DNA from: Escherichia phage vB_EcoM-12474III
Length of the DNA: 33,807 bases
Strand: one strand, 5' to 3'
Sequence record: NC_049457.1
Shown: positions 1,655 to 28,276 of the stretch, in pieces
Numbering within the stretch: the stretch's first letter is position 1
Layout of the letters: each line of letters begins with the position of its first letter
The notes under the pieces: generated by a model
What the model was told of the DNA's origin: nothing
Databases searched by the model: none
Seen by the model: only the letters and a program-made list of their open reading frames with translations
Program-made: the position numbers and the translations under genes

Positions 1655-1827
1655 TGTCAGGAGTCCTGAATAGTGATTAGAGGAGTCACATGTCGGCATC
1701 AGTTTCCCGACGATGCGCATCCTCCGCCATCAGTCCCGGATGGCTTATCACTGACACAACAGCACCTTAGCGAATCGCGGGACGCGACTCAGTAGCCTTG
1801 CCGTGTATTCATCACGGCGAGGTATTC

Positions 1828-3600
1828 ATGACCATCACCACAGACACCACTCTTTTACACGACCCGCGTCGTCAGGCGGCGCTGCTGTACTGGCAGGGGT
1901 TTTCCGTGCCGCAGATTGCCGCCATGTTGCAGATGAAACGCCCGACGGTGCAGAGCTGGAAACAGCGCGACGGCTGGGACAGCGTTGCCCCCATCAGCCG
2001 TGTCGAAATGAGTCTGGAAGCGCGGCTGACCCAGCTCATCATCAAACCGCAGAAAACCGGCGGTGACTTCAAGGAAATTGACCTGCTGGGACGCCAGATT
2101 GAACGACTGGCACGGGTAAACCGTTACAGTCAGACCGGCAACGAGGCAGACCTTAATCCGAACGTCGCTAACCGCAACAAAGGCGGGCGGCGCAAACCGA
2201 AAAAGAATTTTTTCAGTGACGAGGCCATCGAAAAGCTGGAGCAGATTTTCTTTGAGCAGTCTTTCGAATATCAGCTGCACTGGTATCGCGCCGGGCTTGA
2301 GCACCGCATCCGCGATATCCTGAAATCCCGCCAGATTGGCGCGACGTTTTATTTTTCCCGCGAGGCGCTGCTGCGCGCCCTGAAAACCGGCCATAACCAG
2401 ATTTTTCTGTCGGCCAGTAAAACGCAGGCGTATGTGTTCCGCGAATACATCATCGCCTTTGCCCGTCTGGTTGACGTTGACCTGACCGGTGACCCGATTG
2501 TCCTGGGCAATAACGGTGCAAAACTGATTTTTCTCGGCACCAACTCCAACACCGCACAGAGCCATAACGGCGACCTGTACGTCGATGAGATTTTCTGGAT
2601 CCCGAATTTTCAGGTACTGCGTAAGGTAGCATCAGGTATGGCCTCACAGAGTCACCTGCGTTCGACCTATTTCTCCACCCCGTCCACGCTGGCGCACGAC
2701 GCCTACCCGTTCTGGTCGGGTGAACTGTATAACCGGGGACGCGCCAGCGCCGCCGAACGCGTGGAAATCGACGTCAGTCATAACGCCCTTGCCGGTGGGC
2801 TTCTCTGTGCGGACGGCCAGTGGCGACAGATTGTCACCATTGAGGACGCCCTGAAAGGTGGCTGCACGCTGTTCGACATTGAGCAGCTCAAACGCGAAAA
2901 CAGCGCCGACGATTTTAAAAACCTGTTCATGTGTGAATTTGTTGACGACAAGGCGTCGGTGTTCCCGTTCGAGGAGCTGCAACGCTGCATGGTCGACACG
3001 CTGGAAGAATGGGAAGACTATGCACCCTTTGCCGCCAATCCGTTCGGCTCCCGCCCGGTATGGATTGGTTACGACCCGTCACACCGTGGCGACAGCGCCG
3101 GATGCGTGGTGCTGGCACCGCCGGTGGTGGCCGGTGGCAAATTCAGAATACTTGAGCGTCACCAGTGGAAAGGCATGGACTTTGCCACCCAGGCTGAATC
3201 CATCCGCAAACTCACCGAAAAATATAACGTCGAATACATCGGTATTGATGCCACCGGCCTCGGTGTCGGCGTGTTCCAGCTCGTGCGCTCGTTCTATCCC
3301 GCCGCGCGCGACATCCGCTACACGCCGGAAATGAAAACCGCAATGGTGCTCAAGGCAAAAGACGTTATCCGCCGTGGCTGTCTGGAATATGACGTCAGCG
3401 CCACCGACATCACCAGCTCGTTTATGGCTATCCGCAAGACCATGACCAGCAGCGGACGCAGCGCCACCTATGAGGCCAGCCGCAGCGAGGAAGCCAGCCA
3501 CGCCGACCTCGCCTGGGCGACCATGCACGCCCTGTTAAATGAGCCACTCACCGCCGGTATCAGCACCCCGCTGACATCCACCATTCTGGAGTTTTACTGA
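1828..3600 (+). CDS. P: Terminase ATPase (large) subunit gpP
   Basis: MTITTDTTLLHDPRRQAALLYWQGFSVPQIAAM... (590 aa from the ATG at 1828) matches P2 gpP; divergent from O as in P2. Confidence 0.92.
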   Translation: MTITTDTTLLHDPRRQAALLYWQGFSVPQIAAMLQMKRPTVQSWKQRDGWDSVAPISRVEMSLEARLTQLIIKPQKTGGDFKEIDLLGRQIERLARVNRYSQTGNEADLNPNVANRNKGGRRKPKKNFFSDEAIEKLEQIFFEQSFEYQLHWYRAGLEHRIRDILKSRQIGATFYFSREALLRALKTGHNQIFLSASKTQAYVFREYIIAFARLVDVDLTGDPIVLGNNGAKLIFLGTNSNTAQSHNGDLYVDEIFWIPNFQVLRKVASGMASQSHLRSTYFSTPSTLAHDAYPFWSGELYNRGRASAAERVEIDVSHNALAGGLLCADGQWRQIVTIEDALKGGCTLFDIEQLKRENSADDFKNLFMCEFVDDKASVFPFEELQRCMVDTLEEWEDYAPFAANPFGSRPVWIGYDPSHRGDSAGCVVLAPPVVAGGKFRILERHQWKGMDFATQAESIRKLTEKYNVEYIGIDATGLGVGVFQLVRSFYPAARDIRYTPEMKTAMVLKAKDVIRRGCLEYDVSATDITSSFMAIRKTMTSSGRSATYEASRSEEASHADLAWATMHALLNEPLTAGISTPLTSTILEFY

Positions 3601-4634
3601 TGAGCAAGAAAAAAGGGAAAACACCGCAACCTGCGGCAAAAAAAATGACCGCCAGCGCCCCGAAAATGGAGGCATTCACCTTTGGTGAGCCGGTGCCGGT
3701 ACTCGACCGCCGTGACATTCTGGATTACGTCGAGTGCATCAGTAACGGCAGATGGTATGAGCCGCCGGTCAGCTTTACCGGTCTGGCAAAAAGCCTGCGT
3801 GCTGCCGTACATCACAGCTCACCGATTTACGTCAAACGTAATATTCTGGCCTCGACATTTATCCCGCATCCGTGGCTTTCCCAGCAGGATTTCAGCCGCT
3901 TTGTGCTGGATTTTCTGGTGTTCGGTAATGCGTTTCTGGAAAAGCGTTACAGCACTACCGGTAAGGTCATCAGACTGGAAACCTCACCGGCGAAATATAC
4001 CCGTCGTGGCGTGGAAGAGGATGTTTACTGGTGGGTGCCGTCCTTCAACGAGCCGACAGCCTTCGCGCCCGGCTCCGTGTTTCATCTGCTGGAGCCGGAT
4101 ATTAATCAGGAGCTGTACGGCCTGCCGGAATATCTCAGCGCCCTTAACTCTGCCTGGCTGAATGAGTCGGCCACGCTGTTCCGCCGCAAGTATTACGAAA
4201 ACGGCGCTCATGCCGGATATATCATGTACGTCACTGATGCCGTGCAGGATCGCAACGATATCGAAATGCTCCGCGAAAACATGGTGAAGTCGAAAGGCCG
4301 CAACAACTTTAAAAATCTGTTTCTCTATGCCCCACAGGGGAAAGCCGACGGCATCAAAATTATCCCGCTCAGTGAAGTGGCAACGAAGGACGATTTTTTT
4401 AATATCAAAAAAGCCAGCGCCGCTGACCTGCTGGACGCGCACCGCATCCCCTTTCAGTTGATGGGCGGCAAGCCGGAGAACGTCGGGTCACTGGGCGATA
4501 TTGAGAAAGTGGCAAAGGTCTTTGTCCGCAATGAGCTTATCCCGTTACAGGATAGGATCCGCGAGATAAACGGCTGGCTCGGTCAGGAGGTCATCCGCTT
4601 TAAAAACTACTCACTGGACACTGACAACGGCTGA
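3600..4634 (+). CDS. Q: Portal protein gpQ
   Basis: 344-aa ORF MSKKKGKTPQPAAKKMTASAPKMEAFTFGEP...; same length as P2 gpQ; its start overlaps the P stop (TGATG). Confidence 0.92.
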   Translation: MSKKKGKTPQPAAKKMTASAPKMEAFTFGEPVPVLDRRDILDYVECISNGRWYEPPVSFTGLAKSLRAAVHHSSPIYVKRNILASTFIPHPWLSQQDFSRFVLDFLVFGNAFLEKRYSTTGKVIRLETSPAKYTRRGVEEDVYWWVPSFNEPTAFAPGSVFHLLEPDINQELYGLPEYLSALNSAWLNESATLFRRKYYENGAHAGYIMYVTDAVQDRNDIEMLRENMVKSKGRNNFKNLFLYAPQGKADGIKIIPLSEVATKDDFFNIKKASAADLLDAHRIPFQLMGGKPENVGSLGDIEKVAKVFVRNELIPLQDRIREINGWLGQEVIRFKNYSLDTDNG

Positions 4635-4662: not shown

Positions 4663-4803
4663 TATCCCGTCATCACGCCCTCACACGCTCACCACCGCAC
4701 AAAACACCCCGCAGAGACACCAATGCCCCGGCGCACAATCTAAACGCCGTCACGACGCGCTCAGACGCTGAAAAAATAAAATCCGCACCACCGCCAGCGC
4801 GCA

Positions 4804-4822
4804 GTGCTTTCCCGCCTCGCCC
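4804..4822. other. cos: cos cohesive-end site (19 nt)
   Basis: Minus strand reads GGGCGAGGCGGGAAAGCAC, near-identical to the P2 cohesive end as I recall it (GGCGAGGCGGGGAAAGCAC); it lies about 170 bp beyond the Q stop, as in P2. Confidence 0.7.
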
Positions 4823-5008
4823 GCCCGCTTCATGGGTCGGTTTTAATGCAGTTGCATAACATATTATTCATAGCACCACTGTGAGTTTATGGCTTCATTT
4901 TAGCGAGTTACTTACGCATGCATTTTAATGCACATAATTGCAGTTCTAGCCTACGTTTAACTCCAGTGTTAATCTTTGCATATCACCATATCTAATGAGA
5001 TTAGAGTT

Positions 5009-6127
5009 ATGACAGAAAGCCTTGATTACATCGACCTCAATAAACTTGAGCTTGATACAAAAAATCCACGTCTTCCTGAAGGTGTTGAACGTACCCCAGA
5101 AGCAATGCTAAATCATATAGCTCTAACAACCTCTATTGAAGACTTGATGAATGCAATCGCAGAAAATGGATTTTTTCCTGGCGAGCCTCTTATTGCGGTT
5201 AAAGAGGGAGATAAGTACACCGTTGTGGAAGGCAACCGTCGCTTAACGGCAGTTAAACTTATTCATAACCCATATGAGTGCGACAGACCCAGCTCCCGGA
5301 TGATAGAAATCGCCGAAAGCGCTAAAGATAAACTAGGTACACTAGAAAAATTACCAGTGATCGTTAGAGATACCAGAGCTGAAATTTTACCTTATTTGGG
5401 TTTCAGACATATCACTGGTGTCAAACAATGGGAACCTCTATCGAAGGCTCGTTATATCGAGCAACTTTTTGGGCTCACCTCCCCAAACTCACCGACTAAT
5501 GATCGATATCATCAGGTTGCTCGTGCAATTGGTAGCAGAAAAGATCATATCAAGAGAAATCTAGATGCTTTAGCCGTTTATAAAGTAATGGAGAGCAATA
5601 ACTTTTATGATATTGATGGATTAGATGAAGAATCGATCAAGTTTTCAATTTTATCTACAGCCTTAGCTGACGAGAAAATTGGATTGTTTGTTGGCGTCTC
5701 AGAAAAAGACGAATATGGTGATATTACATCCAATGATGTAATAATTCACCCACATCATATAAATAGAGAAAATACCAGAGAACTTACACTATGGCTTTAT
5801 AAAAAGGATGATTCCGGGAAAACAAAGGTTGGAGAGTCCCGAAATTTACGCCTATTATCTTCTGTTATTGATAACCCCAAGGCTTTAACGTCCTTTAGAA
5901 ACGGGGCTGACCTTAAGGTTGCGTATCAGTTAACTGAAGACTTAAAACAAGATTTCATGACGTTACTTTATAAAGCTGAATCTGCATTAATTGAAGCGGC
6001 TGGAATTGTTGCAACCATTGATTACAATCCTGAAGCATTGGAAGTTGCAAGACGCCTAAGTCAAAATGTCAAACTTATTGGTAATACAATTAAAGCCAAA
6101 AAGGTTTCTGACGATGAAGATTTTTAA
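5009..6127 (+). CDS. ParB/Srx-fold (ParB N-terminal nuclease-like) domain protein, cargo gene
   Basis: N-terminus carries ParB-type motifs DTKNPR (aa 16-21) and VVEGNRRLTAV (aa 72-82, the GxRR box); ATG at 5009 follows a GAG-rich RBS; AT-rich relative to the core; overlaps the start of the next gene. Confidence 0.6.
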   Translation: MTESLDYIDLNKLELDTKNPRLPEGVERTPEAMLNHIALTTSIEDLMNAIAENGFFPGEPLIAVKEGDKYTVVEGNRRLTAVKLIHNPYECDRPSSRMIEIAESAKDKLGTLEKLPVIVRDTRAEILPYLGFRHITGVKQWEPLSKARYIEQLFGLTSPNSPTNDRYHQVARAIGSRKDHIKRNLDALAVYKVMESNNFYDIDGLDEESIKFSILSTALADEKIGLFVGVSEKDEYGDITSNDVIIHPHHINRENTRELTLWLYKKDDSGKTKVGESRNLRLLSSVIDNPKALTSFRNGADLKVAYQLTEDLKQDFMTLLYKAESALIEAAGIVATIDYNPEALEVARRLSQNVKLIGNTIKAKKVSDDEDF

Positions 6128-7106
6128 AATCGGAGACATTCATCCTAGTGTTCCTCATCTTTTTGCAGACCTTGCAGAACTTGCTACGGTTATAAATTAT
6201 TCTGGTCGTTATGATCTACATAAAAATGACCTCATAACAATAAGAACTCAAAGTAACACAAGTGTGGATGATATTGATCAAGAATATCAAGAAGATGAAA
6301 ATGAAGGCTGCGATGCTGAACGCAATGACCGTTTAGAAAGACAAGTTGAAGATGTCTGGACGCAACTCGATTTTAGACAAAATTTTCTCAAGGATATTTA
6401 TCCATTTATTATTAATGGTGACTTTATTTCATTGAAAGAAAACCTCACTGAGATACAAAGAATATATATTTTCTTACTCGCATGCTCGAGGTTACGTTCT
6501 TTCACAAAGGCTAGGCAAGGAATAATACAGTTTTGGGCAAAAAATTTTGCTGTCGTAAGTAAATTTTGTGCAACAGCACTACTCCCAGCACACTCAACTG
6601 TACGAGTATTTGACGCAAACTCAGATGACAGGCGAAAATATTATGGTACTGATTTAAGAAAAGCCTTGAAAAGGCTAGGAAAAGACTTAGCTGTTCCTTA
6701 TATTAATGAGCAAGAGTGCGAAAGAGCTGATCCGAGAGGTGATGGTGGTTTTGATATAGTTGCAACTATAGAATTTGAAGATAAATTAAGTAGTAACTTT
6801 GCCTTTTTAGGTCAATGTGGAGCCCAAGAAAGAGATTGGCCCAAAAAAACACTTGAAGCCCACTCATTGAAACTACGAACATATTTTCAAGTGCATTTTG
6901 ACATACCAACTCTAATGTTTACCCCCGTATTCTATCGAAACTCAGATGGTCAATGGGTAGACAATAGCCCTTGCGCTGGAGTATTGATCATTGACAGAGC
7001 AAGGATATTACAGCTTTTAAAAAAGACAAACCATTGCCCTAAAATAGTTTCAGAACAATGGTTTCTTGATTTCGAACAAATTATCAATGATCTTAAGGTC
7101 GAATAA
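6114..7106 (+). CDS. Hypothetical protein with a possible PD-(D/E)xK nuclease motif; operon partner of the ParB-fold gene
   Basis: ATG at 6114 overlaps the upstream gene end (6127); protein contains RGDGGFDIVATIEFEDK (aa 208-224), reminiscent of the Mrr-type GDGGxD ... ExK catalytic signature; AT-rich. Confidence 0.5.
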   Translation: MKIFKIGDIHPSVPHLFADLAELATVINYSGRYDLHKNDLITIRTQSNTSVDDIDQEYQEDENEGCDAERNDRLERQVEDVWTQLDFRQNFLKDIYPFIINGDFISLKENLTEIQRIYIFLLACSRLRSFTKARQGIIQFWAKNFAVVSKFCATALLPAHSTVRVFDANSDDRRKYYGTDLRKALKRLGKDLAVPYINEQECERADPRGDGGFDIVATIEFEDKLSSNFAFLGQCGAQERDWPKKTLEAHSLKLRTYFQVHFDIPTLMFTPVFYRNSDGQWVDNSPCAGVLIIDRARILQLLKKTNHCPKIVSEQWFLDFEQIINDLKVE

Positions 7107-8045
7107 CTAATCCCAAATATCTGGAAGAGATTTAGCAACCGCCTCAAATAAAGGAGGCGGAACAGCATTGCCAACTACTGTATACTTCATATTAATAGAA
7201 GCCCGTTCAGTTTCTGGAAAAATTAGGTCTCCAAAACCCTGTAAAATAGCGGCCTCTCGATAACTAAACCTACGAGCTGGTGCATCCGAAGTAAATTGCC
7301 ACTTATCTGGACCCAATTTTTCTAATGTTGGACTTATTGGATGTAGAGGCATATGTCTAGGATTTGCAACAATTGTTTTAGATATCTGATCCCAATCTTG
7401 CCGACGGTTGCGCGATAGATAATACCAATGAAAATCGGCATCATAAAACTCACCAATAGGCCAAACAGGCATATGACCAATAGCATCACGAATTGTTGAA
7501 TATGGTTTCAAGCCATCACCATGTGTTGGTTTTGGAAATTTGTATGTAATACCATAGTCTTTTCGTATTCCTACGATAAAGATTCTCTTCCTATCTTGTG
7601 ATACGCCATAGTGGGACGCATTCAGAATTTGCGAGCTTACTGTATAACCTGCTTCTTCGAAAACTTTGAATTGATCCTTTAACAAATGTTCAAAGTTACG
7701 CCTTACCATTCCAGAAACATTCTCTACAATGAATGCTTTTGGCTTAATCTTTCTCAAAGCACGAGCAAACTCTAAATATAGAGTATTAATCTTTCTATCT
7801 GCCTTCCTTGCTCCACCCTGGCTAAATCCCTGGCAAGGATAGCATCCGATAAGCAATTCGGCAGAAGGGAACGATTGGAGTCCTGAAATATCGCCCAATA
7901 TGTAATCAGTTTCAGGATGGTTTTCTAAGTAAACGTCCCTTGCATAAGGCAAAATATCGTTTGCCATCAGCACATTGAACCCTGCTCTCAAAACTCCCGC
8001 ATCAGAACCACCACATCCAGAAAAAAGTGAAACTACAGTTGGCAT
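7107..8045 (-). CDS. DNA (cytosine-5)-methyltransferase
   Basis: Canonical C5-MTase motifs: FSGCGG (motif I, aa 8-13), PCQGFS (motif IV, aa 70-75), ENV (motif VI, aa 108-110), a QDRKR motif (VIII-like) and a C-terminal GNAVPPPL; convergent with, and abutting, the 6114..7106 gene. Confidence 0.88.
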   Translation of the reverse strand: MPTVVSLFSGCGGSDAGVLRAGFNVLMANDILPYARDVYLENHPETDYILGDISGLQSFPSAELLIGCYPCQGFSQGGARKADRKINTLYLEFARALRKIKPKAFIVENVSGMVRRNFEHLLKDQFKVFEEAGYTVSSQILNASHYGVSQDRKRIFIVGIRKDYGITYKFPKPTHGDGLKPYSTIRDAIGHMPVWPIGEFYDADFHWYYLSRNRRQDWDQISKTIVANPRHMPLHPISPTLEKLGPDKWQFTSDAPARRFSYREAAILQGFGDLIFPETERASINMKYTVVGNAVPPPLFEAVAKSLPDIWD

Positions 8046-8257
8046 CGCCCCTCCTAAAAACCGACCGCGTATTATAGCGAAACCACCCCTTGGGAAAAGC
8101 TAGATTTCGCCAAGTTTTGATATTCTCATGTTTTAGTAGTTGTGGCCATCTTTAACGAGAGAAAGATGAAATTGAGTTCTCATTAATTTTCAATAGGTTT
8201 AATTGTAAACACAGCAGGAATCAAAGCTAACACGTCGCTACGCTCATTGTTCAACCC

Positions 8258-8290
8258 CGCCATCTCTGAAAACAAGTTTCAGAAATGGCG
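8258..8290. promoter_or_regulatory. Imperfect palindrome upstream of the methyltransferase gene
   Basis: cgccatctctgaaa-acaag-tttcagaaatggcg, 13/14 complementary arms; sits in an AT-rich spacer about 210 bp upstream of the MTase start. Confidence 0.35.
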
Positions 8291-8296
8291 AGTATA

Positions 8297-8542
8297 CTAC
8301 ATCCTATGCGGTAGTTTCTTAGGCATGTTTGCTGGTCGAAATACCTCAATTTTCTGTCTACTGATATCGTTAAACCGTCTGTAATTATCCCGGACCATTT
8401 CGGCACACCCGACCAGCTCATCAGGCGTCAGATTTTCGTTGACCATAATCTGCTGTAGACGGTGGACAATGGCCATCAGCTTGATATTTTTAGTTTTATG
8501 CTGCGGTATCTCGCCTGGTATTCTGTGCATTATCCAAGCCAC
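8297..8542 (-). CDS. Small hypothetical protein (81 aa; start uncertain, possibly 8476)
   Basis: ORF only; occupies the position of the small post-A ORFs in P2-like phages. Confidence 0.4.
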   Translation of the reverse strand: MAWIMHRIPGEIPQHKTKNIKLMAIVHRLQQIMVNENLTPDELVGCAEMVRDNYRRFNDISRQKIEVFRPANMPKKLPHRM

Positions 8543-8982
8543 CCGTTTTGCTGTGCACGCTCCATCTGTTCATCTGAATAGTTCCATGCTCCATCCGTGG
8601 CAACCATTGCCCCGCCAGACACCCCCGTCTCTGGTTCATACATAACAGCAAGGCCGAGCTGATGCATAATTTCATGATTAATTCTGAATACCAGGCCACG
8701 CTCACTAAGTTCTTTCCAGTTCACAATCTCATATGCGCTTGTATTAAGCAGCTCAATACTTAGCAAGACATAATCTTCCAGCCAGTCTGACAGGTCAGTA
8801 ACATCTGTTATCCGGGCTTCAACCTTTCGCCCCGTAAACACACCCTGTACCCATTCATGCAAAATCAGCGTATCCCCGCGCTCATAATTACGGTCATTTT
8901 TCCGAAACTCTGCACGTTTCTTTCCTTCCAGCACAAGGTCGAAATATTTTGCGTGCAGCTTTACCTCGTGAATTTTTGCCAT
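8530..8982 (-). CDS. ASCH/DUF3850-like protein with a C-terminal HExxH motif
   Basis: MAKIHEVKLHAKYFDLVLEGKKRAEFRKNDRNYERGDTLILHEW... resembles PUA-like ASCH/DUF3850 domains; C-terminal part contains HEIMH followed by YEPE; ATG at 8982 overlaps the end of A. Confidence 0.6.
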   Translation of the reverse strand: MAKIHEVKLHAKYFDLVLEGKKRAEFRKNDRNYERGDTLILHEWVQGVFTGRKVEARITDVTDLSDWLEDYVLLSIELLNTSAYEIVNWKELSERGLVFRINHEIMHQLGLAVMYEPETGVSGGAMVATDGAWNYSDEQMERAQQNGWLG

Positions 8983-11267
8983 GATGTCCACTCCATTACT
9001 GTTGAGAATCCCGGCCACACATCAGCGACCAGATACGTGAATTTTTTTCCGTCATAATTTACGGTTGCTCCACGCGCCAGCGCCTCAAGTTCCCATCGCT
9101 GAGGCCAGATGCCGTTCTGAGCAAGGTCAACACGGATACGGGTAATTTGCATACGCTCCGACCGGGTCAGCCTGGCCGATGGCGCTATTTCATTCGGTTT
9201 TAACGGGCTTCCGTTTCTTTGCTGACGGTTTGGTGTTCTCAGGCCGTGTTTTAATGCGCCCCTGAGCGCCCTCACGACCTCCGGGTCATTCCATTCGATA
9301 ACACCGTCATCAACCAGATTAAGCACGGCTGCGGCGCGCTCAGAAGGTGTGGGAGCCGGTAACGAAGTATCACCACCGGTGAGCTTTCCACAGTTATTGA
9401 CAGGACTCCGAGGCGCGGCGATGCCGCTTTTTAAAGTCAAAGGCTCAACGACCGGCACTTTCGGAACAATGCGCCAGTCCGTCGTTCTGGTGATATGAAT
9501 ATGACGCGCGCCGAGATGCGGCGCGTAAATGCCGACCACTCTCTCGACTTCTTCCTCGTACTCGTTAACTTCATCCGACGGACTACGGGCGACCCTGACA
9601 GTCTGACAATCGCGCGGGACATTTGCCCCACCCTGCGCGCTGATATACAGCGCAAAATCACCACTGTCTGCGGCGGCGCGTGCAGCCTCGACGCGCTCGT
9701 CAAACTCATCAGCAATGCTGACGCCGCGAGGCAATTTGCGTAGTTCACGGTAAGCCCCCATTGTCGGCAGGCCAACCGTTTTAAATTGCGGAATGCGCCA
9801 CGTTGACGCCCATGCGGTAACAGCCGCGGCAGTATCTTTCAGCGGTCTGCCGGTATCGTTATCGAGCTGCCCATCCAGTGCATAGCCGTCGATATTTTTT
9901 GAGATGTATTTCGCGATATACCCCGCAGCACCGCCCCGATTAAGATGTTTTGCCTGAAAACGGTTTCGCGCGGCTCCTCTTTCGTCGCCATCCTCTTTGA
10001 GCGCATAGCGACGCATGATTTCAATAATCTGGTTACGCTGGCGTGGATTACAAAAAAGCATCATATGCCAGTGCGGCGTTCCGTCGTGGTGTGGCTCAAC
10101 GACACGCAAACCGTAGGCCTGTAAATCATTATCCTTGAATGCCGTGCGCATCAGGCTCCAGATACGGCAGAGATAACGCTGCGCATCCTTTGGATTAAAT
10201 GCCTCATGGTTCCAGCCGTGATTAAGCTGGACGGTTTTACTTTCGCCTTTTCCGACCTGACGTGTCGGGTGATACTTTGACGGCGCGGTCAGCGTGATAA
10301 ACATCCCCACATCACCCTCTGCGGCGGCGTAACGCTCAATACCGGCAATGGTGTTCATCAGCTCCATCCGGCGAATTTCAGGATTAGAAATACTGCCCAT
10401 CACCTTACTGATAAGGTCGATGCGTTCGCCGGTTTCCCTGTTTTCAAGGTCACACGATTTAAGAAATTCCAGATTTGCCTGGCGGCGTGCACGTACATCA
10501 CGAATGGCATGTTTACTGGCATAAGGAGAACGGTCTTTATTCACCGCCCCGACAGCAATCAGTAACGCCTCATGCCAGCGCATACGCTGGCCTTTAAGCT
10601 GATGAGCCCACCACTCATCGTTAAACAGACGGGCAATGGCAGAATATGCCTGCCTCGTGGTCATCTGCCCTTTACGGTATTTTTTCCAGTAGAGAGGGGA
10701 AATATTGAAAGCTCGTGCAGCGCCAGCAACATGACCATACAGGTGAGCCTGCGCCTCATCCGTAAACAGCGATTCTTTCTCGCCATGCGCATCCACCCAG
10801 GCATCGCTGAGTTCCTCATACATCATGAAAAGCTGCGATGAGATACGGGCGGCAAATTTTTTCAGCTCCTTGTCATTCATTCCCGGCAGGCGCGCATAGT
10901 GGTCACGCTCTGCCAGAAACAGTAACGACGCGTCGGTGTTCATTTCATGGCGCTGATTCACACGCTCAATGCGCGGCCATAAACGACGCTGAAAAGTGGA
11001 TGTGAGAAAATAAAACCCGTGCACCGGGCTTTTATTGCGCCGGATGTAGTCATAGCGTGAAGTAAACAGCGAGCGCAAAAAGTAAGGCAGGCGGTTAATC
11101 GTGGATAAAACACCTTGCACCTGACGCATCTCGTCACGTGTAAGGGGTCTTTCGCGCCCGACAGCCTCGCGTGGCGCGTTCCATGCATAAGCACCGGTAA
11201 ACGCCTTACCGGTGCCTGCGGCAAATGCTGACGGAGGGACAAAACGCCCGGAGGCTTTAACGGCCAT
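8961..11267 (-). CDS. A: Rolling-circle replication initiator endonuclease gpA
   Basis: Long ORF; from MAVKASGRFVPPSAFAAGTGK... it matches P2 gpA as I recall it (about 761 aa); start chosen at that Met. Confidence 0.9.
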   Translation of the reverse strand: MAVKASGRFVPPSAFAAGTGKAFTGAYAWNAPREAVGRERPLTRDEMRQVQGVLSTINRLPYFLRSLFTSRYDYIRRNKSPVHGFYFLTSTFQRRLWPRIERVNQRHEMNTDASLLFLAERDHYARLPGMNDKELKKFAARISSQLFMMYEELSDAWVDAHGEKESLFTDEAQAHLYGHVAGAARAFNISPLYWKKYRKGQMTTRQAYSAIARLFNDEWWAHQLKGQRMRWHEALLIAVGAVNKDRSPYASKHAIRDVRARRQANLEFLKSCDLENRETGERIDLISKVMGSISNPEIRRMELMNTIAGIERYAAAEGDVGMFITLTAPSKYHPTRQVGKGESKTVQLNHGWNHEAFNPKDAQRYLCRIWSLMRTAFKDNDLQAYGLRVVEPHHDGTPHWHMMLFCNPRQRNQIIEIMRRYALKEDGDERGAARNRFQAKHLNRGGAAGYIAKYISKNIDGYALDGQLDNDTGRPLKDTAAAVTAWASTWRIPQFKTVGLPTMGAYRELRKLPRGVSIADEFDERVEAARAAADSGDFALYISAQGGANVPRDCQTVRVARSPSDEVNEYEEEVERVVGIYAPHLGARHIHITRTTDWRIVPKVPVVEPLTLKSGIAAPRSPVNNCGKLTGGDTSLPAPTPSERAAAVLNLVDDGVIEWNDPEVVRALRGALKHGLRTPNRQQRNGSPLKPNEIAPSARLTRSERMQITRIRVDLAQNGIWPQRWELEALARGATVNYDGKKFTYLVADVWPGFSTVMEWTSWQKFTR

Positions 11268-11532
11268 ATGAGCCAAAAGCCTCTGAACAACGCTTGCTGA
11301 GTTGCTCAACCTGCGCGTTTAAATCAGCAAAAGACTTTGCGCTTCCGGTCAGAATATCGTGATGCATCAGGCCGGAAACGAGCTGGCTTAATTTCGGGTA
11401 ATAACCAACCACTGCCAGCCATTCCTGACCGACGTTTTTACCGCTTTCCGCTCTCTTTTTCTCGTGGAGAATAAACTGAAAGCTGTCACTGGTAACGACA
11501 TAACGTTCGCCAATTTCAATACGAATACTCAT
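11257..11532 (-). CDS. Hypothetical protein, P2 orf83-like by position
   Basis: 91-aa ORF directly upstream of and overlapping A, as in P2. Confidence 0.6.
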   Translation of the reverse strand: MSIRIEIGERYVVTSDSFQFILHEKKRAESGKNVGQEWLAVVGYYPKLSQLVSGLMHHDILTGSAKSFADLNAQVEQLSKRCSEAFGSYGR

Positions 11533-12342: not shown

Positions 12343-12849
12343 TTAATGCAGATATTGCTCTGGTTTTACCGACGTCAGAATTGTCGGTGCATATTCAAAC
12401 AGACTGAATAATTCACGTAATGCACGGAATAAAGCATCACGCCAGTAACATGACTCTTCATTAATTCGCCAGTATGGCTGATTGAATTCTTTTTCTGTCA
12501 ATCCCGCATGCATAAATAAAGTGCGACGCTGACTGACTGTTAAAAAACTAATATATGCATACTCACTCGCGCCAACCTGACGACGTTTTGAGAATGCCCC
12601 ACGCAATTCATCAATTGCACATACCAGTCGTTCACGTTCGACGTCGTTCATTTCTTCAAAACGCATCGTTGCGTGACGCTGTTTTAACTGCGCATGAAAG
12701 CAAACCGTTAGCCGTTCGCGCTCCATCATCTGATTATAATAATCACATGTATCCTGCCAGCGAGGAACGGCAAGATGCTTACCAATTATCCGGCGCATAG
12801 CTGCTGGCTGTTTTTCAACGAGATTGAGCGTCATCACTGTCATTTCCAT
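12343..12849 (-). CDS. B: Replication protein gpB (helicase-loader-like)
   Basis: MTVMTLNLVEKQPAAMRRIIGKHLAVPRWQDTCDYYNQ... matches P2 gpB as I recall it. Confidence 0.85.
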   Translation of the reverse strand: MEMTVMTLNLVEKQPAAMRRIIGKHLAVPRWQDTCDYYNQMMERERLTVCFHAQLKQRHATMRFEEMNDVERERLVCAIDELRGAFSKRRQVGASEYAYISFLTVSQRRTLFMHAGLTEKEFNQPYWRINEESCYWRDALFRALRELFSLFEYAPTILTSVKPEQYLH

Positions 12850-13010
12850 ACCCTCCGGCTTTTCAGAAAGGTCAGAGCCTTTTTTAACGGACTCTGTTTT
12901 TTGGTGCGGATAATGATTCCCTTACGCCCCTTACCGTGGGTGATGGTGAAGTCAATCGCCCTGGGGCTTTCGTTACGCAGTAACTGAGCAATATAACGCG
13001 GTTCACTCAT
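12840..13010 (-). CDS. Small protein, P2 orf78-like
   Basis: MSEPRYIAQLLRNESPRAIDFTITHGKGRKG...; between cox and B, as in P2. Confidence 0.6.
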   Translation of the reverse strand: MSEPRYIAQLLRNESPRAIDFTITHGKGRKGIIIRTKKQSPLKKALTFLKSRRVWK

Positions 13011-13012
13011 AA

Positions 13013-13285
13013 TCACAACCCCATCCACAAAAGCCATGCATCACGCTGTTCAACTGGTCGGTTATAAAACGCCTCTCGTACAGCGCGATTAAACTCTGGA
13101 ATGAAAACCCACTTCTCACCGACACGAGCGTTCGGCTTACTTGGATCACGAAGCTCAATAACTGGCAATTTATTCTCTTTTACCATCTTGACTACAGCCG
13201 TTTCTGGCTTACCAAGTAACTCTGCAAACTTAACCGTATGTACCGCATCAATCGGGTACTGAATCACATAGTCATTGACTTCCAT
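13013..13285 (-). CDS. cox: Cox (early-promoter repressor and excision directionality factor)
   Basis: 90-aa ORF divergent from C; conserved ...KLPVI...W...GL architecture of P2 Cox but clearly divergent sequence. Confidence 0.75.
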   Translation of the reverse strand: MEVNDYVIQYPIDAVHTVKFAELLGKPETAVVKMVKENKLPVIELRDPSKPNARVGEKWVFIPEFNRAVREAFYNRPVEQRDAWLLWMGL

Positions 13286-13437
13286 TGATTAGCCCTTTTT
13301 GCTTTCGTGTTACCCTTATTAGATCCAGTCCCTTCTAGGTCGCCCCTGTCCTTTCTAGGGACTGGCTAACACACTCAAAAGGTCACCAATACACAACCTT
13401 TTGACGGGAATATAAGTCACCAATAGGTTACTGTCAA
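13286..13437. promoter_or_regulatory. Divergent early promoter/operator region (Pe/Pc equivalent) between cox and C
   Basis: Intergenic region between divergent cox and C; contains direct repeats cccttctagg / cctttctagg and inverted arms ccagtccct ... agggactgg at 13325..13365. Confidence 0.6.
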
Positions 13438-13731
13438 ATGCAGACATTCGAAAAACTGAAAGCGATTAGGAAAGCAGAAGGCTTAACACAGGCGAAATTC
13501 AGCGAAATTAGCGGGATAGCTCTAGGAACAGTCAAAAATTACGAAAGTGGGCATAAAGACCCTGGTCTCAGCATCGTTATGCGAGTCACAAATACGCCTT
13601 TATTTAAAAAATATACGCTCTGGTTAATGACTGGTGATACGTCACCACAAGCTGGTCAGATCGCGCCGGCTCTCGCACACATTGGGCAAAAACCAACAGA
13701 ATCAGACCACTCCGAAAAACAGACTGGTTAA
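13438..13731 (+). CDS. C: Immunity repressor C
   Basis: 97-aa ORF; C-terminal ...KYTLWLMTGD...GQIAPALAHIGQ... resembles P2 C; the N-terminus is divergent. Confidence 0.8.
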   Translation: MQTFEKLKAIRKAEGLTQAKFSEISGIALGTVKNYESGHKDPGLSIVMRVTNTPLFKKYTLWLMTGDTSPQAGQIAPALAHIGQKPTESDHSEKQTG

Positions 13732-13800
13732 CACTCTATAAACATTACATTTTCACTATTTGTTACCAAGATGGTGAATACAGCGTCAGAGGGCTTTCTT

Positions 13801-14781
13801 ATGTCAATTAAGAAGCTCGATGATGGACGCTATGAAGTGGACATTAGACCTCGCGGTCGCGACGGAAAACGCATCCGCAGGAAATTTGAAAGAAAAGCTG
13901 AGGCTGTAGCATTTGAGCGATACACAATCGCCTACGCCAGCCAGAAAGAATGGGCAGGTCAGCGAGCAGATCGCAGAACTTTGAGTGAGTTGCTGGACAT
14001 CTGGTGGAAATATCACGGGCAAAACCACGAGCATGGAACAAAAGAGTTTAATCATCTGCTCAAAACCATCAGCGGCATAGGTGATATACCAGTGAGCCGG
14101 ATGAGCAAAAGAGCTTTGATGGATTATCGTTCCATGCGACTACGTGATGGTATCAGTGCCGCAACGATAAACCGTGACATGTACCGATTATCCGGCATGT
14201 TCACAAAATTAATTCAATTGGATGAATTTTCCGGGCAACACCCAATTCACGGACTGCCGCCACTGGCGGAGGCCAACCCTGAAATGACGTTCCTGGAAAA
14301 AGCAGAAATCGAAAAACTGTTAAATGTTTTGGATGGTGATGACTTACTTGTCGCACTTTTATGTCTGAGCACTGGAGGAAGATGGACGGAAGTTGCCACG
14401 CTAAAACCAGCACAGATTACAAATTGCAGGGTTACCTTCCTGAAAACCAAAAACGGTAAAAAGCGAACCGTGCCGATTTCTGAGGAACTGGAGAAAAAAG
14501 TTAAAGAGGAGGCCAGCGCTAAATTATTCAAAGTTGATTATGAGAAGTTTTGCGGGATTTTACGCAGAGTGAAGCCAGATATACCACCCAATCAGGCAAC
14601 CCACATCCTGCGGCATACATTCGCAAGCCATTTCATGATGAATGGGGGCAATATAATCGCACTGCAACAGATTCTGGGACATGCGAGCATTCAGCAGACG
14701 ATGGCCTATGCGCACCTTGCGCCTGACTACCTGCAAAATGCCGTCGCACTGAATCCTCTAAAAGGCGGAGTGACGTTATAA
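13801..14781 (+). CDS. int: Tyrosine integrase
   Basis: MSIKKLDDGRYEVDIRP... (P2 Int-like N-terminus); C-terminal HILRHTFASHFMMNGG ... LGH ... MAYAHL tyrosine-recombinase motifs. Confidence 0.9.
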   Translation: MSIKKLDDGRYEVDIRPRGRDGKRIRRKFERKAEAVAFERYTIAYASQKEWAGQRADRRTLSELLDIWWKYHGQNHEHGTKEFNHLLKTISGIGDIPVSRMSKRALMDYRSMRLRDGISAATINRDMYRLSGMFTKLIQLDEFSGQHPIHGLPPLAEANPEMTFLEKAEIEKLLNVLDGDDLLVALLCLSTGGRWTEVATLKPAQITNCRVTFLKTKNGKKRTVPISEELEKKVKEEASAKLFKVDYEKFCGILRRVKPDIPPNQATHILRHTFASHFMMNGGNIIALQQILGHASIQQTMAYAHLAPDYLQNAVALNPLKGGVTL

Positions 14782-14795
14782 ATTTCCCTTCTGAG

Positions 14796-15050
14796 TGTCC
14801 ACATAGTGTCCACACTCTCAGAACTTTGTAGCCCTTCCAGTCCCTTATAGGTTTTCTTAAGTTACTGTTTTCTTACGGAAACCGATGTAAGTGATTGATA
14901 AAAAAAACCCCCACATCATGTGGGGGAAGACAGGGATGGTGTCACAAAAAAGCACCTAACCTGATGATATAAATGGATTTATGTCAACCACTGTCCACAT
15001 AGCGTCCACATCGACCATAAATAAGCCCCTCGACTGAGGGGCTATTTTTG
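14796..15050. other. attP: attP region: Int arm-type sites flanking a probable core
   Basis: TGTCCACATAGTGTCCACA (14796..14814) and TGTCCACATAGCGTCCACA (14992..15010) are tandem copies of the reverse complement of TGTGGACA, which I recall as the P2 Int arm-site motif; the probable core is the A-run plus hairpin at about 14898..14930. Confidence 0.55.
14900..14926 (-). terminator. Rho-independent terminator downstream of ogr (likely overlapping the attP core)
   Basis: Minus strand reads stem cccccacatgatgtggggg followed by eight T. Confidence 0.7.
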
Positions 15051-15053
15051 TGA

Positions 15054-15272
15054 TCACATCCACATAATTTGCTGCCCTGACGGCAACGGGTGCGGCCTCA
15101 CGGCGTGGACTTCTCCCGGCTTCACGATGTATCTCTGTACCGACTCATAAGTGATGAACGTGGCGCTGCAATTCACGTTCTGGCACTGGTGATAACGCTC
15201 TTTTGTCGTGTCAGTGATATAGCGGCTTGTACGCGCATGTGCGGCATGCTGGCATAAAGGACAATGAAACAT
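15054..15272 (-). CDS. ogr: Late-gene transcriptional activator Ogr (zinc finger)
   Basis: MFHCPLCQHAAHARTSRYITDTTKERYHQCQNVNCSATF... has the C-X2-C-X22-C-X4-C pattern and matches P2 Ogr (72 aa); RBS GGAAGAGG upstream of the ATG at 15272. Confidence 0.88.
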   Translation of the reverse strand: MFHCPLCQHAAHARTSRYITDTTKERYHQCQNVNCSATFITYESVQRYIVKPGEVHAVRPHPLPSGQQIMWM

Positions 15273-15352
15273 CGCGAGCACCTCTTCCGGTTTTGTTAAT
15301 GGTGCCATTTTATTTAATTTATCCTTATAAAACAAACAGATAAAACTAAACA

Positions 15353-16516
15353 TTAATCATCATCTTCTGTTTCGTACTCCACATCAGAAAGCCTGACCTC
15401 AAGCTCTAAGGACGTCGTGAAGCCGCTATTATTCAGAAAATGTGTCACCTTAGTGATTGTCCAGTCCTGCTCGTCTATGACGCGCTTAAAGCCTGACACT
15501 CTGACCGGTGTTTCCGTGTAAATATCAGCACGACCAGTGGCCAGGCTGATGGAGAACTCCGCAACGCCCCGTTGCAGTTTATCCCACTTCGCCTGAGCGG
15601 CACGCATGGCCTGCGCTTTTGTGGCATATACCGTAGTCAGGGCAAAAACGTTGTCAGCTTCACCTGCCATGTATTCACCTTCGCGCGCTTCCGGTGCTTT
15701 TGGCGCTTTCTTCTGCGTGACCGGTTTCGCTTTCGGGTGCTCCAGTGCGCGCAGGTGTTTCTCTTTCTTTTTGCGTTTCAGTTTTACCTTCTGCTTTTGC
15801 GGCTTCGGGTCTTTGGTGTGTAACCACTTTGCCGTTACGCCGGTGTAAGCTCCACGGTCAGCAATCGCAAAATGATGACGGTCGCCGTCGCTGCGGGTGA
15901 TGGTAATCTGCGGGATTTTTTTACCGCTGGCCGTCACCCCCTGCCCCACTTTGAGAAACAGCAGTTTTCCCATTTTTACCGACACCTCACCGCCGTTGCG
16001 TTCAGCAAGGCGGGTCAGGAATTTTGCATCAGACTCCTGTGACTGGTCGATGTGCGGGATTTTAATTCCGGCCAGTGACGGAGCGACACTGGCTTCCAGC
16101 CTGTTACGGGAGGCTATCGCCTCAACAATCGCACCGAGCGTGGTGTCATGCCAGGAGCCTTCACGGCGGGAATTGAGCGTCCCGCGAAAATCTGCACTCC
16201 TGGCGCGGATGGTGACCACATCCGGCGCGCCCCGGTGTTCAACCTCATCAACGGTAAATTTCCCTTTGCATACCAGGGCAAAACCTTTCCAGCCGATATA
16301 CACCGTCAGGACAGCGCCACGAACCGGCAGCCCGACCTGCCCGTCGGCATCGTTCAGTTCAATATCAAGCTGGTCAGCCTCAAAGCCCCGGTTATCCGTC
16401 AGGGTCATGCTCATCAGACGGTCGCTGATATTGCCGGTAATATCCCTGCTGTCGAGCATCAGCATGTAATCCGGCGTCAGCGTACTGCCTGCATCAAATG
16501 TCAGCGCATCCAGCAT
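15353..16516 (-). CDS. D: Tail protein gpD
   Basis: 387-aa ORF, the same length and position as P2 gpD. Confidence 0.85.
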   Translation of the reverse strand: MLDALTFDAGSTLTPDYMLMLDSRDITGNISDRLMSMTLTDNRGFEADQLDIELNDADGQVGLPVRGAVLTVYIGWKGFALVCKGKFTVDEVEHRGAPDVVTIRARSADFRGTLNSRREGSWHDTTLGAIVEAIASRNRLEASVAPSLAGIKIPHIDQSQESDAKFLTRLAERNGGEVSVKMGKLLFLKVGQGVTASGKKIPQITITRSDGDRHHFAIADRGAYTGVTAKWLHTKDPKPQKQKVKLKRKKKEKHLRALEHPKAKPVTQKKAPKAPEAREGEYMAGEADNVFALTTVYATKAQAMRAAQAKWDKLQRGVAEFSISLATGRADIYTETPVRVSGFKRVIDEQDWTITKVTHFLNNSGFTTSLELEVRLSDVEYETEDDD

Positions 16517-28193: not shown

Positions 28194-28276
28194 GCATGTG
28201 AGATTGCACAATATATAAAAGTTATGCTATCTGGATTCATTTGTAGAACTACCAGACAACATTCAAGGAGAGCGTA

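What the first reader, a model, noticed from the sequence alone, without database searches (positions are those of the whole stretch)
7107..8045. Phage-borne C5-cytosine methyltransferase convergent with the nuclease-like operon
All hallmark C5-MTase motifs are present, and P2 itself carries no such gene as far as I recall. It may be the modification partner of the adjacent operon, or an orphan anti-restriction methylase. Either way it could alter the methylation state of the host and phage genome, and its specificity is unknown.
Basis: partly seen in the sequence, partly recalled or inferred. Interest (0 to 1): 0.55.

Follow-up and report, generated by a model that had tools for sequence, protein, structure and literature searches.

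The report
Phage methylase in three-gene defence cassette
The gene is a real, intact cytosine-5 DNA methylase carried by a P2-like phage. It is the constant third member of a widespread but untested three-gene cassette (a ParB-like protein, a nuclease-like protein and the methylase), which most likely works as a restriction-modification-type defence.

Summary
Observation confirmed. Window 7107-8045 (-) encodes a 312-aa C5-cytosine methyltransferase with all motifs. It aligns end to end with M.HaeIII, and the GGCC-contacting residues are conserved.

It is not a stray gene. It abuts, stop codon to stop codon, a two-gene operon:
- ORF1 (5009-6127) has a ParB/KorB-type fold.
- ORF2 (6114-7106) has a winged-helix domain plus a restriction-endonuclease-like domain. 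Its closest structural match, though weak, is MspJI.

The trio is conserved in:
- all 140 of 5,426 complete E. coli genomes that hold any part of it;
- 29/29 viral contigs;
- integrase-linked islands of Pseudomonas and Burkholderia;
- two loci where all three genes run co-directionally.

The methylase stays 73-98% identical while the partner pair splits into two clades only 24-35% identical. Phage Wphi's 'mth' is 98% identical but sits with the other clade.

The best reading is that the methylase is the self-marking partner of an R-M-like defence (confidence about 0.5). Rivals are an MspJI-like modification-dependent nuclease that merely travels with a methylase, or an independent methylase.

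Against an obligatory partnership, 6-7 chromosomal loci, almost all from metagenome-assembled genomes, keep an intact pair without the methylase.

The methylase is known in kind. Rousset et al. 2022 catalogued the cassette but did not test it. Specificity and activity remain untested.

The parts
7107..8045 (-). C5-cytosine DNA methyltransferase, 312 aa, M.HaeIII-like (catalytic Cys71; TRD about residues 160-257)
   Evidence: ORF. PF00145 E 3.7e-62, full length. phmmer to M.HaeIII 1dct E 1.3e-49 over residues 4-307, TRD included. Identical to RefSeq WP_001540306 'DNA cytosine methyltransferase'.
5009..6127 (+). ORF1, 372 aa (the open frame runs from TTG 4976): ParB/KorB-type N-terminal domain (NPR and G-N-R-R-L-T-A boxes), an HTH DNA-binding domain, a helical C-terminal domain and an acidic ...DDEDF tail
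6114..7106 (+). ORF2, 330 aa, overlapping ORF1 by 14 nt: N-terminal winged helix plus helical region, and a C-terminal restriction-endonuclease-like (PD-(D/E)xK-type) domain with conserved G-D210-G-G-x-D214 ... Q234-C-G ... K245 ... E248
8050..8076 (-). Putative own promoter -10 (TATAAT 8076-8071) and ribosome-binding site (AGGAGG 8055-8050) of the methylase
   Evidence: Read from the sequence. The consensus scan did not report it because no good -35 is present. Function is inferred.
7028..7064 (-). Terminator-like hairpin (17 pairs, then a T-run) 43 nt downstream of the methylase stop codon, embedded in the 3' end of ORF2
   Evidence: Consensus scan. Function is inferred.
4860..8300 (.). Low-GC (38%) cargo island between cos/portal gene Q and the orf91-like/A genes. 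This is the P2 'tin-old' hotspot and holds the three genes.
   Evidence: GC 0.35-0.41 here against 0.52-0.58 in the flanks. Portal 3600-4634 and gpA 8961-11309. The hotspot is described in Rousset et al. and Vassallo et al..

Best explanation
The gene encodes an active-looking, M.HaeIII-type C5-cytosine methyltransferase. It is the modification (self-marking) module of a mobile three-gene restriction-modification-like cassette in the cos-proximal hotspot of a P2-like phage.

Proposed mechanism:
1. In the lysogen the methylase, read from its own promoter, methylates host and prophage DNA at a short site predicted to be GGCC or a near relative.
2. ORF1 (a ParB/KorB-type, probably NTP-binding, DNA-binding protein) and ORF2 (winged helix plus restriction-endonuclease-like domain) are translationally coupled and act together as the restriction arm against incoming DNA that lacks the mark.
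3. This protects the lysogen and may also stabilise the prophage.

Shown: the gene, its motifs, the similarity of its TRD to M.HaeIII, the folds of the partners, and the conserved linkage.

Inferred: catalytic activity, the GGCC specificity, nuclease activity of ORF2, NTP use by ORF1, and that methylation blocks attack.
For: Methylase:
- Full-length PF00145 match with all motifs.
- End-to-end alignment with M.HaeIII.
- The equivalents of M.HaeIII S224, R225, R227 and R243 are S211, R212, R214 and R230. They are conserved here and across 17 family members. Their roles in reading GGCC are taken from PMC3526282.

Linkage:
- ORF1 and ORF2 are always adjacent (14-nt overlap here; the called genes overlap likewise in other loci). 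Their divergence is tightly correlated, rho 0.89-0.92.
- An orthologous methylase (61-88% identity) abuts or overlaps the 3' end of ORF2 in 15 loci. It lies upstream in one co-directional operon in two more, L026 and L027.
- The same trio sits next to integrases in Pseudomonas nitroreducens and Burkholderia vietnamiensis, and in other P2-like prophages of E. coli, Klebsiella and Morganella.
- 29/29 viral contigs carry the trio.
- In 5,426 complete E. coli genomes, 36 carry this pair and 36 this methylase allele. 104 carry the Wphi-type pair and 104 the Wphi-type allele.

Methylase alleles are interchangeable among very different effector pairs. Methylases are 73-98% identical while the pairs are 24-35% identical between clades. 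This fits all pairs depending on one and the same mark.

Decay pattern:
- IS elements hit ORF1 (strains GF50 and GF54) or ORF2 (FXCREC123), never the methylase, in the 140 genomes.
- L-413C keeps only a truncated ORF1.

Hosts:
- E. coli W lacks hsd, mcrBC and mrr, with pac in their place.
- In RM13514 the same yjiS-yjiA interval holds only pac, so no mcrBC or mrr at that site.
- This is compatible with an active methylase that makes G-5mC.

Folds: ParB/KorB for ORF1 and restriction-endonuclease-like for ORF2.

Precedent: PD-lambda-5 is a P2-hotspot system whose A component's profiles match the ParB-like N-terminal part of ORF1. Its top domain hit was labelled 'methyltransferase', it was validated as a defence, and it was called a compact RM+Abi.
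Against: - No experiment exists. SMRT sequencing of RM13514 reported only adenine methylation, but SMRT detects 5mC poorly, so this does not settle activity.
- Six or seven loci (L005, L012, L016, L019, L022, L024, perhaps L015) keep ORF1+ORF2 with all conserved residues but no methylase within the held flank. Several are flanked by housekeeping genes. This is unusual for a nuclease that is lethal without its methylase.
- The canonical lysine of D...(E/Q)xK is a glycine or alanine in the whole family.
- The best structural match, MspJI, is a modification-dependent enzyme.
- Part of the linkage in E. coli and in viral contigs reflects hitch-hiking inside one prophage region.
Confidence: 0.5

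Rival explanations
1. Type IV-like reading. ORF1+ORF2 form a modification-dependent nuclease, a split analogue of GmrS/GmrD or an MspJI-like enzyme. It attacks modified foreign DNA such as 5hmC or glucosyl-5hmC. The methylase is an evolutionary companion whose own sites are not substrates. It serves to protect the element from GGCC-type restriction in new hosts.
For: - The best structural match of ORF2 is MspJI, and AspBHI is also listed.
- The spacing D214-X19-Q234 matches MspJI's D334...Q355.
- In the MspJI family about half the members sit next to a predicted 5mC methylase, and the rest have lost it (PMC2938202). This matches the mix seen here of loci with and without a methylase.
- Pair-only loci keep intact conserved residues.
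- From general knowledge, ParB/DUF262-type NTPase domains are typical of the GmrSD, BrxU and SspE modification-sensing nucleases. Here the ORF1 N-terminus matches PD-Lambda-5_A profiles.
Against: - No SRA-like or other 5mC-binding domain is found. The N-terminal part of ORF2 is winged helix plus helices.
- Pfam finds no DUF262, DUF1524 or Mrr_cat.
- The methylase is one orthologous family that broadly co-diverges with the pair, rho about 0.62-0.66. It is present in every mobile copy examined: 29/29 viral contigs and 140/140 E. coli genomes. This is tighter than the half-and-half pattern of MspJI.
- Two loci have a co-directional methylase-ORF1-ORF2 operon.
Confidence: 0.22
2. Independent modules. 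The methylase is a solitary (orphan) phage methylase that acts on its own, for anti-restriction or as an epigenetic or lysogenic-conversion function. The ORF1-ORF2 pair is an unrelated cargo, either a defence or a DNA-handling function, that merely shares the hotspot.
For: - The methylase has its own promoter-like -10 and its own terminator-like hairpin.
- Its phylogeny is decoupled from the deep split of the pair.
- The methylase family is larger than the ORF2 family: 2,715 clusters at E<=1e-60 against 277 for ORF2.
- Its closest PADLOC models are Druantia-II DruM.
- The pair occurs alone in some genomes.
Against: - All three methylase homologues sampled blindly from the methylase search again had a ParB-like gene plus a roughly 310-345-aa gene convergent with them.
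- The stop codons abut or overlap by 4 nt in many loci, and two loci have a single operon.
- The linkage is kept in unrelated mobile elements and phyla.
Confidence: 0.15
3. ORF1 is a genuine ParB-type partition or regulatory protein: plasmid-like maintenance of the phage, or a KorB-like repressor controlling the locus. The methylase is then unrelated to nuclease action.
For: ORF1 has the ParB/KorB fold with an HTH domain. NCBI names some homologues 'chromosome partitioning protein ParB'.
Against: - No ParA/StbA-type ATPase is present in the locus.
- The 'putative plasmid partitioning system' of P2 hotspots in Rousset et al. is probably the StbA + Plasmid_stab_B arrangement listed in their table. 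That is a different arrangement.
- The matches to partition-family models are far below cut-off: TIGR00180 scores 24 bits against a cut-off of 58.
- ORF1 is always coupled to the endonuclease-like ORF2.
Confidence: 0.05

Closest known systems
M.HaeIII (GGCC C5-methyltransferase; PDB 1dct/3ubt)
   Same: Same family and the same small size (312 against 330 aa). It aligns over the whole length, including the target-recognition domain (E 1.3e-49). The GGCC-contacting residues S224, R225, R227 and R243 are conserved.
   Different: It has a shorter N-terminal part of the TRD and Y in place of I221. Specificity is not measured. Its partner is not a HaeIII-type endonuclease but a two-gene ParB-like plus nuclease-like operon.
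Phage Wphi mth-gp96-gp98 locus (AY135739), and the same arrangements listed in Rousset et al. 2022, Table S5
   Same: Same hotspot and same three-gene architecture. The methylase is 98% identical. Rousset's table lists 'DNA_methylase + hypothetical + ParBc'. It also lists the very proteins of this window, WP_001540306 and WP_000688782.
   Different: Wphi gp98 and gp96 are only 32% and 25% identical to ORF1 and ORF2, so they belong to a second deep clade. Neither locus appears in Rousset's table of tested systems.
PD-lambda-5 (Vassallo et al. 2022), a validated defence described as a compact prophage 'RM+Abi'
   Same: The study found seven of its systems in P2-like prophages. PD-lambda-5 has a component labelled 'methyltransferase', and its cloning needed a host deleted for the region containing mrr. 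Its A-component profiles match the ParB-like N-terminal part of ORF1.
   Different: Only the first 160 residues or so of ORF1 match PD-Lambda-5_A profiles. ORF2 matches no PADLOC model. The methylase here is a separate C5 enzyme.
MspJI / AspBHI family (Mrr-like modification-dependent endonucleases) with neighbouring 5mC methylase genes
   Same: It is the best, though weak, structural match of ORF2, with the same D...Q spacing. About half of that family lies next to a 5mC methylase.
   Different: ORF2 has no SRA-like reader domain, and the catalytic lysine position is G/A. It needs a ParB-like partner gene. The methylase linkage is much tighter on mobile elements.
ParB/DUF262-type NTPase nucleases that sense DNA modification (GmrSD, BrxU, SspE) and Menshen NsnA
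   Same: A ParB-superfamily domain is coupled to a nuclease in a defence context. Menshen NsnA is described in PMC12065111. The others are from general knowledge.
   Different: ORF1 resembles true ParB/KorB (N-domain plus HTH) rather than DUF262. It has no DUF1524/HNH domain. No NsnB-type ATPase or NsnC is present, and no Menshen model hit it.

Membership tests
C5-cytosine DNA methyltransferase (Pfam PF00145) | Conserved motifs I (FxGxGG), IV (PCQ with catalytic Cys), VI (ENV), VIII (QxRxR), IX and X, in canonical order | tested here: met
   Read from the translation: F8..G13, P70-C71-Q72, E108-N-V110, Q150..R154, R258..F271, G292..P296. The profile is matched at 2-322 of 324.
C5-cytosine DNA methyltransferase (Pfam PF00145) | Score above the curated family threshold | tested here: met
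   211 bits against a cut-off of 22. TIGR00675 scores 187 against 100.65.
C5-cytosine DNA methyltransferase (Pfam PF00145) | Transfers methyl to C5 of cytosine in DNA in vivo | not testable with these tools
   The only methylome of a carrier strain (RM13514, SMRT) reported adenine methylation only. SMRT is poor at detecting 5mC.
GGCC-specific (M.HaeIII-type) methylases | TRD homologous to M.HaeIII with the base-contacting residues S224, R225, R227, R243 | tested here: met
   The alignment runs through the TRD. S211, R212, R214 and R230 are conserved here and in 17 family members. The residue roles are from PMC3526282.
GGCC-specific (M.HaeIII-type) methylases | Methylates GGCC (protects against HaeIII) | not testable with these tools
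   Prediction only. The first half of the TRD is shorter than in M.HaeIII.
Type II restriction-modification system | Methylase gene tightly and recurrently linked to an endonuclease gene | tested here: met
   17 genomic loci, 29/29 viral contigs and 140/140 E. coli genomes. The 'endonuclease' identity of ORF2 is only fold-level.
Type II restriction-modification system | A recognisable endonuclease catalytic site | tested here: inconclusive
   D210/D214, Q234, K245 and E248 are invariant, but the canonical (E/Q)xK lysine is G/A. The loop at residues 239-249 is modelled with low confidence.
Type II restriction-modification system | The endonuclease is not found without a protecting methylase | tested here: inconclusive
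   6-7 pair-only loci, almost all in MAGs or short contigs (L019 is the Crenothrix sp. D3 draft genome), have intact residues. The rest of those genomes could not be searched.
Type II restriction-modification system | Cleavage blocked by the cognate methylation; host-controlled modification of phage | not testable with these tools
   Needs experiments.
Type IV (modification-dependent) restriction: MspJI/Mrr or GmrSD type | A modified-base reader domain (SRA-like) or the DUF262+DUF1524 architecture | tested here: not met
   No Pfam hit for either ORF. The ORF2 N-terminus is winged helix plus helices. ORF1 matches ParB/KorB folds.
Type IV (modification-dependent) restriction: MspJI/Mrr or GmrSD type | Catalytic D...(Q/E)xK motif | tested here: not met
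   The motif is D214...Q234-C-G236. The lysine position is G or A in every member.
PD-lambda-5 | Both components match the PD-Lambda-5_A and _B models | tested here: not met
   Only ORF1 residues about 12-170 match A models. ORF2 has no PADLOC hit.
Druantia type II | DruM together with DruE, DruF and DruG | tested here: not met
   The methylase hits DruM2 models (2.8e-111). No other Druantia protein is found among the neighbours.
ParABS partition system | ParB with a partner ParA-type ATPase; score above the ParB family thresholds | tested here: not met
   No ATPase gene is in the locus. TIGR00180 scores 24 bits against a cut-off of 58.

The most novel reading that the evidence does not exclude
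The cassette is a new class of restriction-modification system. Its restriction arm is a ParB/KorB-type nucleotide-switch DNA clamp (ORF1) that loads on or scans DNA lacking GG(5mC)C. ORF1 then licenses a separate, non-canonical PD-(D/E)xK-like nuclease (ORF2). Because self-recognition lies in one shared methyl mark, very different effector pairs can be swapped against the same methylase by recombination next to cos.
Probability: 0.3. Interest if true: 0.7.

Novelty: new variant of a known kind. Interest (0 to 1): 0.5.

Why it matters
By itself the methylase is ordinary. It matters as the constant marker of a compact, highly mobile three-gene cassette. The cassette is common in P2-like prophages of E. 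coli (2.6% of complete genomes), and was also seen in P2-like prophages of Klebsiella and Morganella. It also occurs in other Proteobacteria. PADLOC classifies only its methylase, not the cassette as a system. In Rousset et al. 2022 it is listed but absent from the table of tested systems.

If it is an R-M-like defence, it would add a ParB-type component to the restriction repertoire. It would also show how one methyl mark lets effector modules be exchanged.

Practically, lysogens would carry extra 5mC, predicted at GGCC. That would affect transformation, McrBC-type barriers and methylome interpretation in EHEC O145:H28 and E. coli W.

Tried and rejected
- Sequence profile of ORF2 against all PDB sequences: nothing meaningful.
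- Pfam, NCBIfam and PADLOC for ORF2: no family.
- Odegrip et al. 2006 on the P2 variable locus is not held.
- Literature searches for a characterised ParB + C5-methylase defence found none. The library is incomplete, so this is not proof of absence.
- The RM13514 methylome paper gives no 5mC data.
- GGCC is under-represented in the window (116 observed, 173 expected). I did not interpret this, because no comparison with cassette-free relatives or with the host background was made.
- Druantia II, PD-lambda-5, Menshen and partition-system memberships were considered and rejected, because the partner genes are absent.
- A search for methylase remnants in the pair-only loci found only a 13-aa C-terminal trace in L005. 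It lies at the expected place but its E-value is 9.2, so it may be chance.
- The IS-insertion pattern (effectors hit, methylase never) rests on only two or three events and is not significant on its own.

Full report
**What is there**

The window is a P2-like phage genome.
- It holds terminase 1798-3600, portal 3600-4634, cos near 4806-4824, replication gene A 8961-11309, and cox, C and int at 13.0-14.8 kb.
- The stretch 4700-8300 is identical, apart from a one-base length difference, in 36 complete E. coli genomes. These include O145:H28 RM13514 and RM12581. It is also identical in the vB_EcoM-12474 phages.
- Between cos and A lies a low-GC island, 35-41% GC against 52-58% in the flanks. This is the 'tin-old' hotspot of P2, known to hold varied defence cargo.

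**The observation**

- The ORF at 7107-8045 (-) encodes 312 aa.
- It matches PF00145 over its whole length, E 3.7e-62, and carries motifs I, IV (P70-C71-Q72), VI, VIII, IX and X.
- RefSeq names it DNA cytosine methyltransferase, WP_001540306.
- On the + strand, ORF1 (5009-6127 by the RefSeq start) and ORF2 (6114-7106) overlap by 14 nt. ORF2 ends at the base before the methylase stop codon.
- Reference P2 has old and tin here. Its relative Wphi has a 98%-identical gene annotated mth.

**The methylase**

- It aligns end to end with M.HaeIII, E 1.3e-49, including the target-recognition domain.
- The M.HaeIII residues reported to read GGCC are S224, R225, R227 and R243 (PMC3526282). They correspond to S211, R212, R214 and R230 here.
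- The core FHWYY(L/M)SR(N/D)R...T(I/V)V...RH(M/V)PLHP is almost invariant in 17 methylases of this family.
- I therefore predict GGCC or a near relative. This is an inference. The first half of the TRD is shorter than in M.HaeIII.
- A TATAAT at 8076-8071 and an AGGAGG at 8055-8050 precede the start codon.
- A strong hairpin with a T-run follows the stop codon, inside ORF2.
- Two natural hosts have no McrBC or Mrr at the immigration control site. E. coli W lacks hsd, mcrBC and mrr. In RM13514 the yjiS-yjiA interval holds only penicillin G acylase. This is compatible with tolerance of G-5mC methylation, but it is only two data points.

**The neighbours**

ORF1:
- It has no Pfam hit above threshold. 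Its first 160 residues or so match PD-Lambda-5_A profiles.
- It has NPR and G-N-R-R-L-T-A boxes.

ORF2:
- It has no family in Pfam, PADLOC or NCBIfam, and is phrog_3984, 'unknown function'.
- Its model (pLDDT 86.5) has a winged helix, a helical region and a C-terminal alpha/beta domain.
- The matches of that domain are weak but are nearly all restriction endonucleases: NgoMIV 6.6, MspJI 6.2, AspBHI, HindIII, FokI, AgeI and Cfr10I. The Foldseek best hit is MspJI, E 9e-3.
- G-D210-G-G-x-D214, D223, Q234-C, K245 and E248 are conserved in both deep clades of the family. The lysine expected in (E/Q)xK is G or A.

**Is the methylase a partner?**

- A scan of one genome per species with the ORF2 alignment gave 24 loci. 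ORF1 is always directly upstream of ORF2.
- An orthologous methylase (61-88% identical) is convergent and abutting in most of these loci. In L026 (Undibacterium) and L027 (an Acidobacteriota MAG) it lies upstream in one co-directional operon.
- In Pseudomonas nitroreducens and Burkholderia vietnamiensis the trio sits beside an integrase.
- In E. coli, Klebsiella and Morganella it sits in the same P2 hotspot.
- All 29 viral contigs found with the ORF2 alignment carry the methylase.
- In 5,426 complete E. coli genomes the counts are exactly matched. This pair is in 36 genomes and this methylase allele in 36. The Wphi-type pair is in 104 and the Wphi-type allele in 104.
- Divergence of ORF1 and ORF2 is tightly correlated (rho 0.89-0.92). 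The methylase correlates with both at about 0.62-0.66 once Wphi is left out.

**An unexpected pattern**

- The effector pair falls into two deep clades.
  - Clade 1: this window, a second E. coli type, Klebsiella L039, Edwardsiella and the environmental loci.
  - Clade 2: Wphi, Klebsiella L035 and Morganella.
- The clades are only 24-35% identical to each other. The methylases are 73-98% identical and show no such split.
- In viral contigs, methylase identity is likewise unrelated to ORF2 identity. For example, L069 has ORF2 at 46% and the methylase at 87%.
- So methylase alleles and effector pairs have been re-assorted repeatedly. The hotspot lies next to cos, where Rousset et al. suggest recombination.
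- Re-assortment is viable if every effector pair depends on the same mark. That fits the partner model, but an unlinked function would allow it too.

**What argues against a simple R-M system**

- Six or seven loci have ORF1+ORF2 but no C5 methylase in the held flanks, even at a tblastn E-value limit of 10: L005, L012, L016, L019, L022, L024 and perhaps L015. Nearly all are MAGs, mostly Methylococcales or Burkholderiales (L019 is the Crenothrix sp. D3 draft genome).
- Their neighbours include citrate synthase, aconitase, NadA, GMP synthase or an IS607-type element.
- Their ORF2 proteins keep all the conserved residues.
- Either another methylase elsewhere protects these genomes, which I could not test, or the pair is not lethal without methylation.
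- The MspJI family is a real precedent for the second case. It looked like a typical R-M locus, and about half its members lie next to 5mC methylases, yet the enzyme cuts only modified DNA.
- I therefore keep a Type IV-like reading as the main rival. Against it:
  - no reader domain is found;
  - the linkage on mobile elements is complete;
  - operonic arrangements exist;
  - the methylase family broadly co-diverges with the pair.

**Decay pattern**

- IS1 interrupts ORF1 in strains GF50 and GF54. IS5 interrupts the ORF2 homologue in FXCREC123. The methylase is intact in all 140 carriers.
- L-413C keeps only a truncated ORF1.
- This is the order of loss expected for R-M systems, but the events are too few to carry weight.

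**Comparison with what is known**

- The methylase is a normal member of the M.HaeIII branch of C5 methylases. Its closest PADLOC models are Druantia-II DruM, but no other Druantia gene is present.
- The cassette is listed among P2 hotspot arrangements by Rousset et al., as 'DNA_methylase + hypothetical + ParBc' and as WP_001540306 + WP_000688782. It is absent from their table of tested systems.
- PD-lambda-5 of Vassallo et al. shares only the ParB-like N-domain.
- Menshen NsnA is a DUF262-type ParB protein with different partners.
- I found no paper that characterises this trio.

**Verdict**

- The finding is real.
- The methylase is most likely (about 0.5) the self-marking partner of an uncharacterised R-M-like cassette with a ParB/KorB-type component.
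- Its predicted target is GGCC-like.
- As a gene it is ordinary. As a system it is a new variant of a known kind and is worth a simple experimental test.

Noticed in passing
window 6100-6127 (C-terminus of ORF1) and alignment A2: The ORF1 family ends in a conserved acidic tail, (D/E)(D/E)-D-x-F. This recalls the C-terminal tail of SSB that recruits partner proteins. The Wphi-type clade ends in ...REDD without the F.
   Followed up: no
window 21974-23056 (+): A low-GC ORF of 360 aa has a SMEK_N domain (PF21941, 1.6e-19) and a PADLOC Aga_REase-PNTD hit. It lies beside the tail-fibre assembly gene (23308-23835). It is probably cargo of the second P2 hotspot, the Z/fun position.
   Followed up: partly
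window 27891-29062 (+): Two adjacent low-GC ORFs (128 and 261 aa) have no Pfam or PADLOC match. This may be a third cargo island.
   Followed up: partly
window 12800-16500: cox, C and int (13013-14781) lie in the middle of the window, directly beside late-region ORFs that were not identified. The window length (33.8 kb) equals that of the vB_EcoM-12474 phages. So the window looks like a whole, circularly permuted phage genome with attP intact, not a prophage with host flanks.
   Followed up: partly
whole window: GATC is strongly avoided: 28 observed against 130 expected, O/E 0.22. GGCC is moderately under-represented: 116 against 173, O/E 0.67.
   Followed up: no
window 8297-9018 (-): Between gene A and the methylase lie a DUF3850/ASCH + DUF7415 protein (8530-9018) and an 81-aa ORF (8297-8542, phrog_11386). 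Both are of unknown function. They are co-oriented with the methylase and conserved in Wphi-type loci.
   Followed up: no
L008:6991-7923: In a Methylophilaceae genome an HNH_2 endonuclease gene is inserted between ORF2 and the methylase. That locus may hold a second, conventional R partner.
   Followed up: no
L046 (E. coli GF50) and L047 (E. coli FXCREC123): IS1 interrupts ORF1, and IS5 interrupts the Wphi-type ORF2 homologue. The methylase stays intact in both.
   Followed up: yes
L045:1472-4012 (RM13514 chromosome 5481472-5484012): In RM13514 the yjiS-yjiA interval holds penicillin G acylase. E. coli W has the same replacement of hsd-mcrBC-mrr by pac. Both are natural hosts of the methylase cassette.
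   Followed up: partly
L005:7027-7065: In a pair-only Methylococcaceae locus, a 13-aa stretch resembles the methylase C-terminus on the opposite strand, just after the ORF2 stop. It may be a deletion scar, but at E 9.2 it may also be chance.
   Followed up: no
window 4700-4976: The RM13514 prophage is one base longer than the window in the cos-proximal non-coding stretch. All three genes are unaffected.
   Followed up: no
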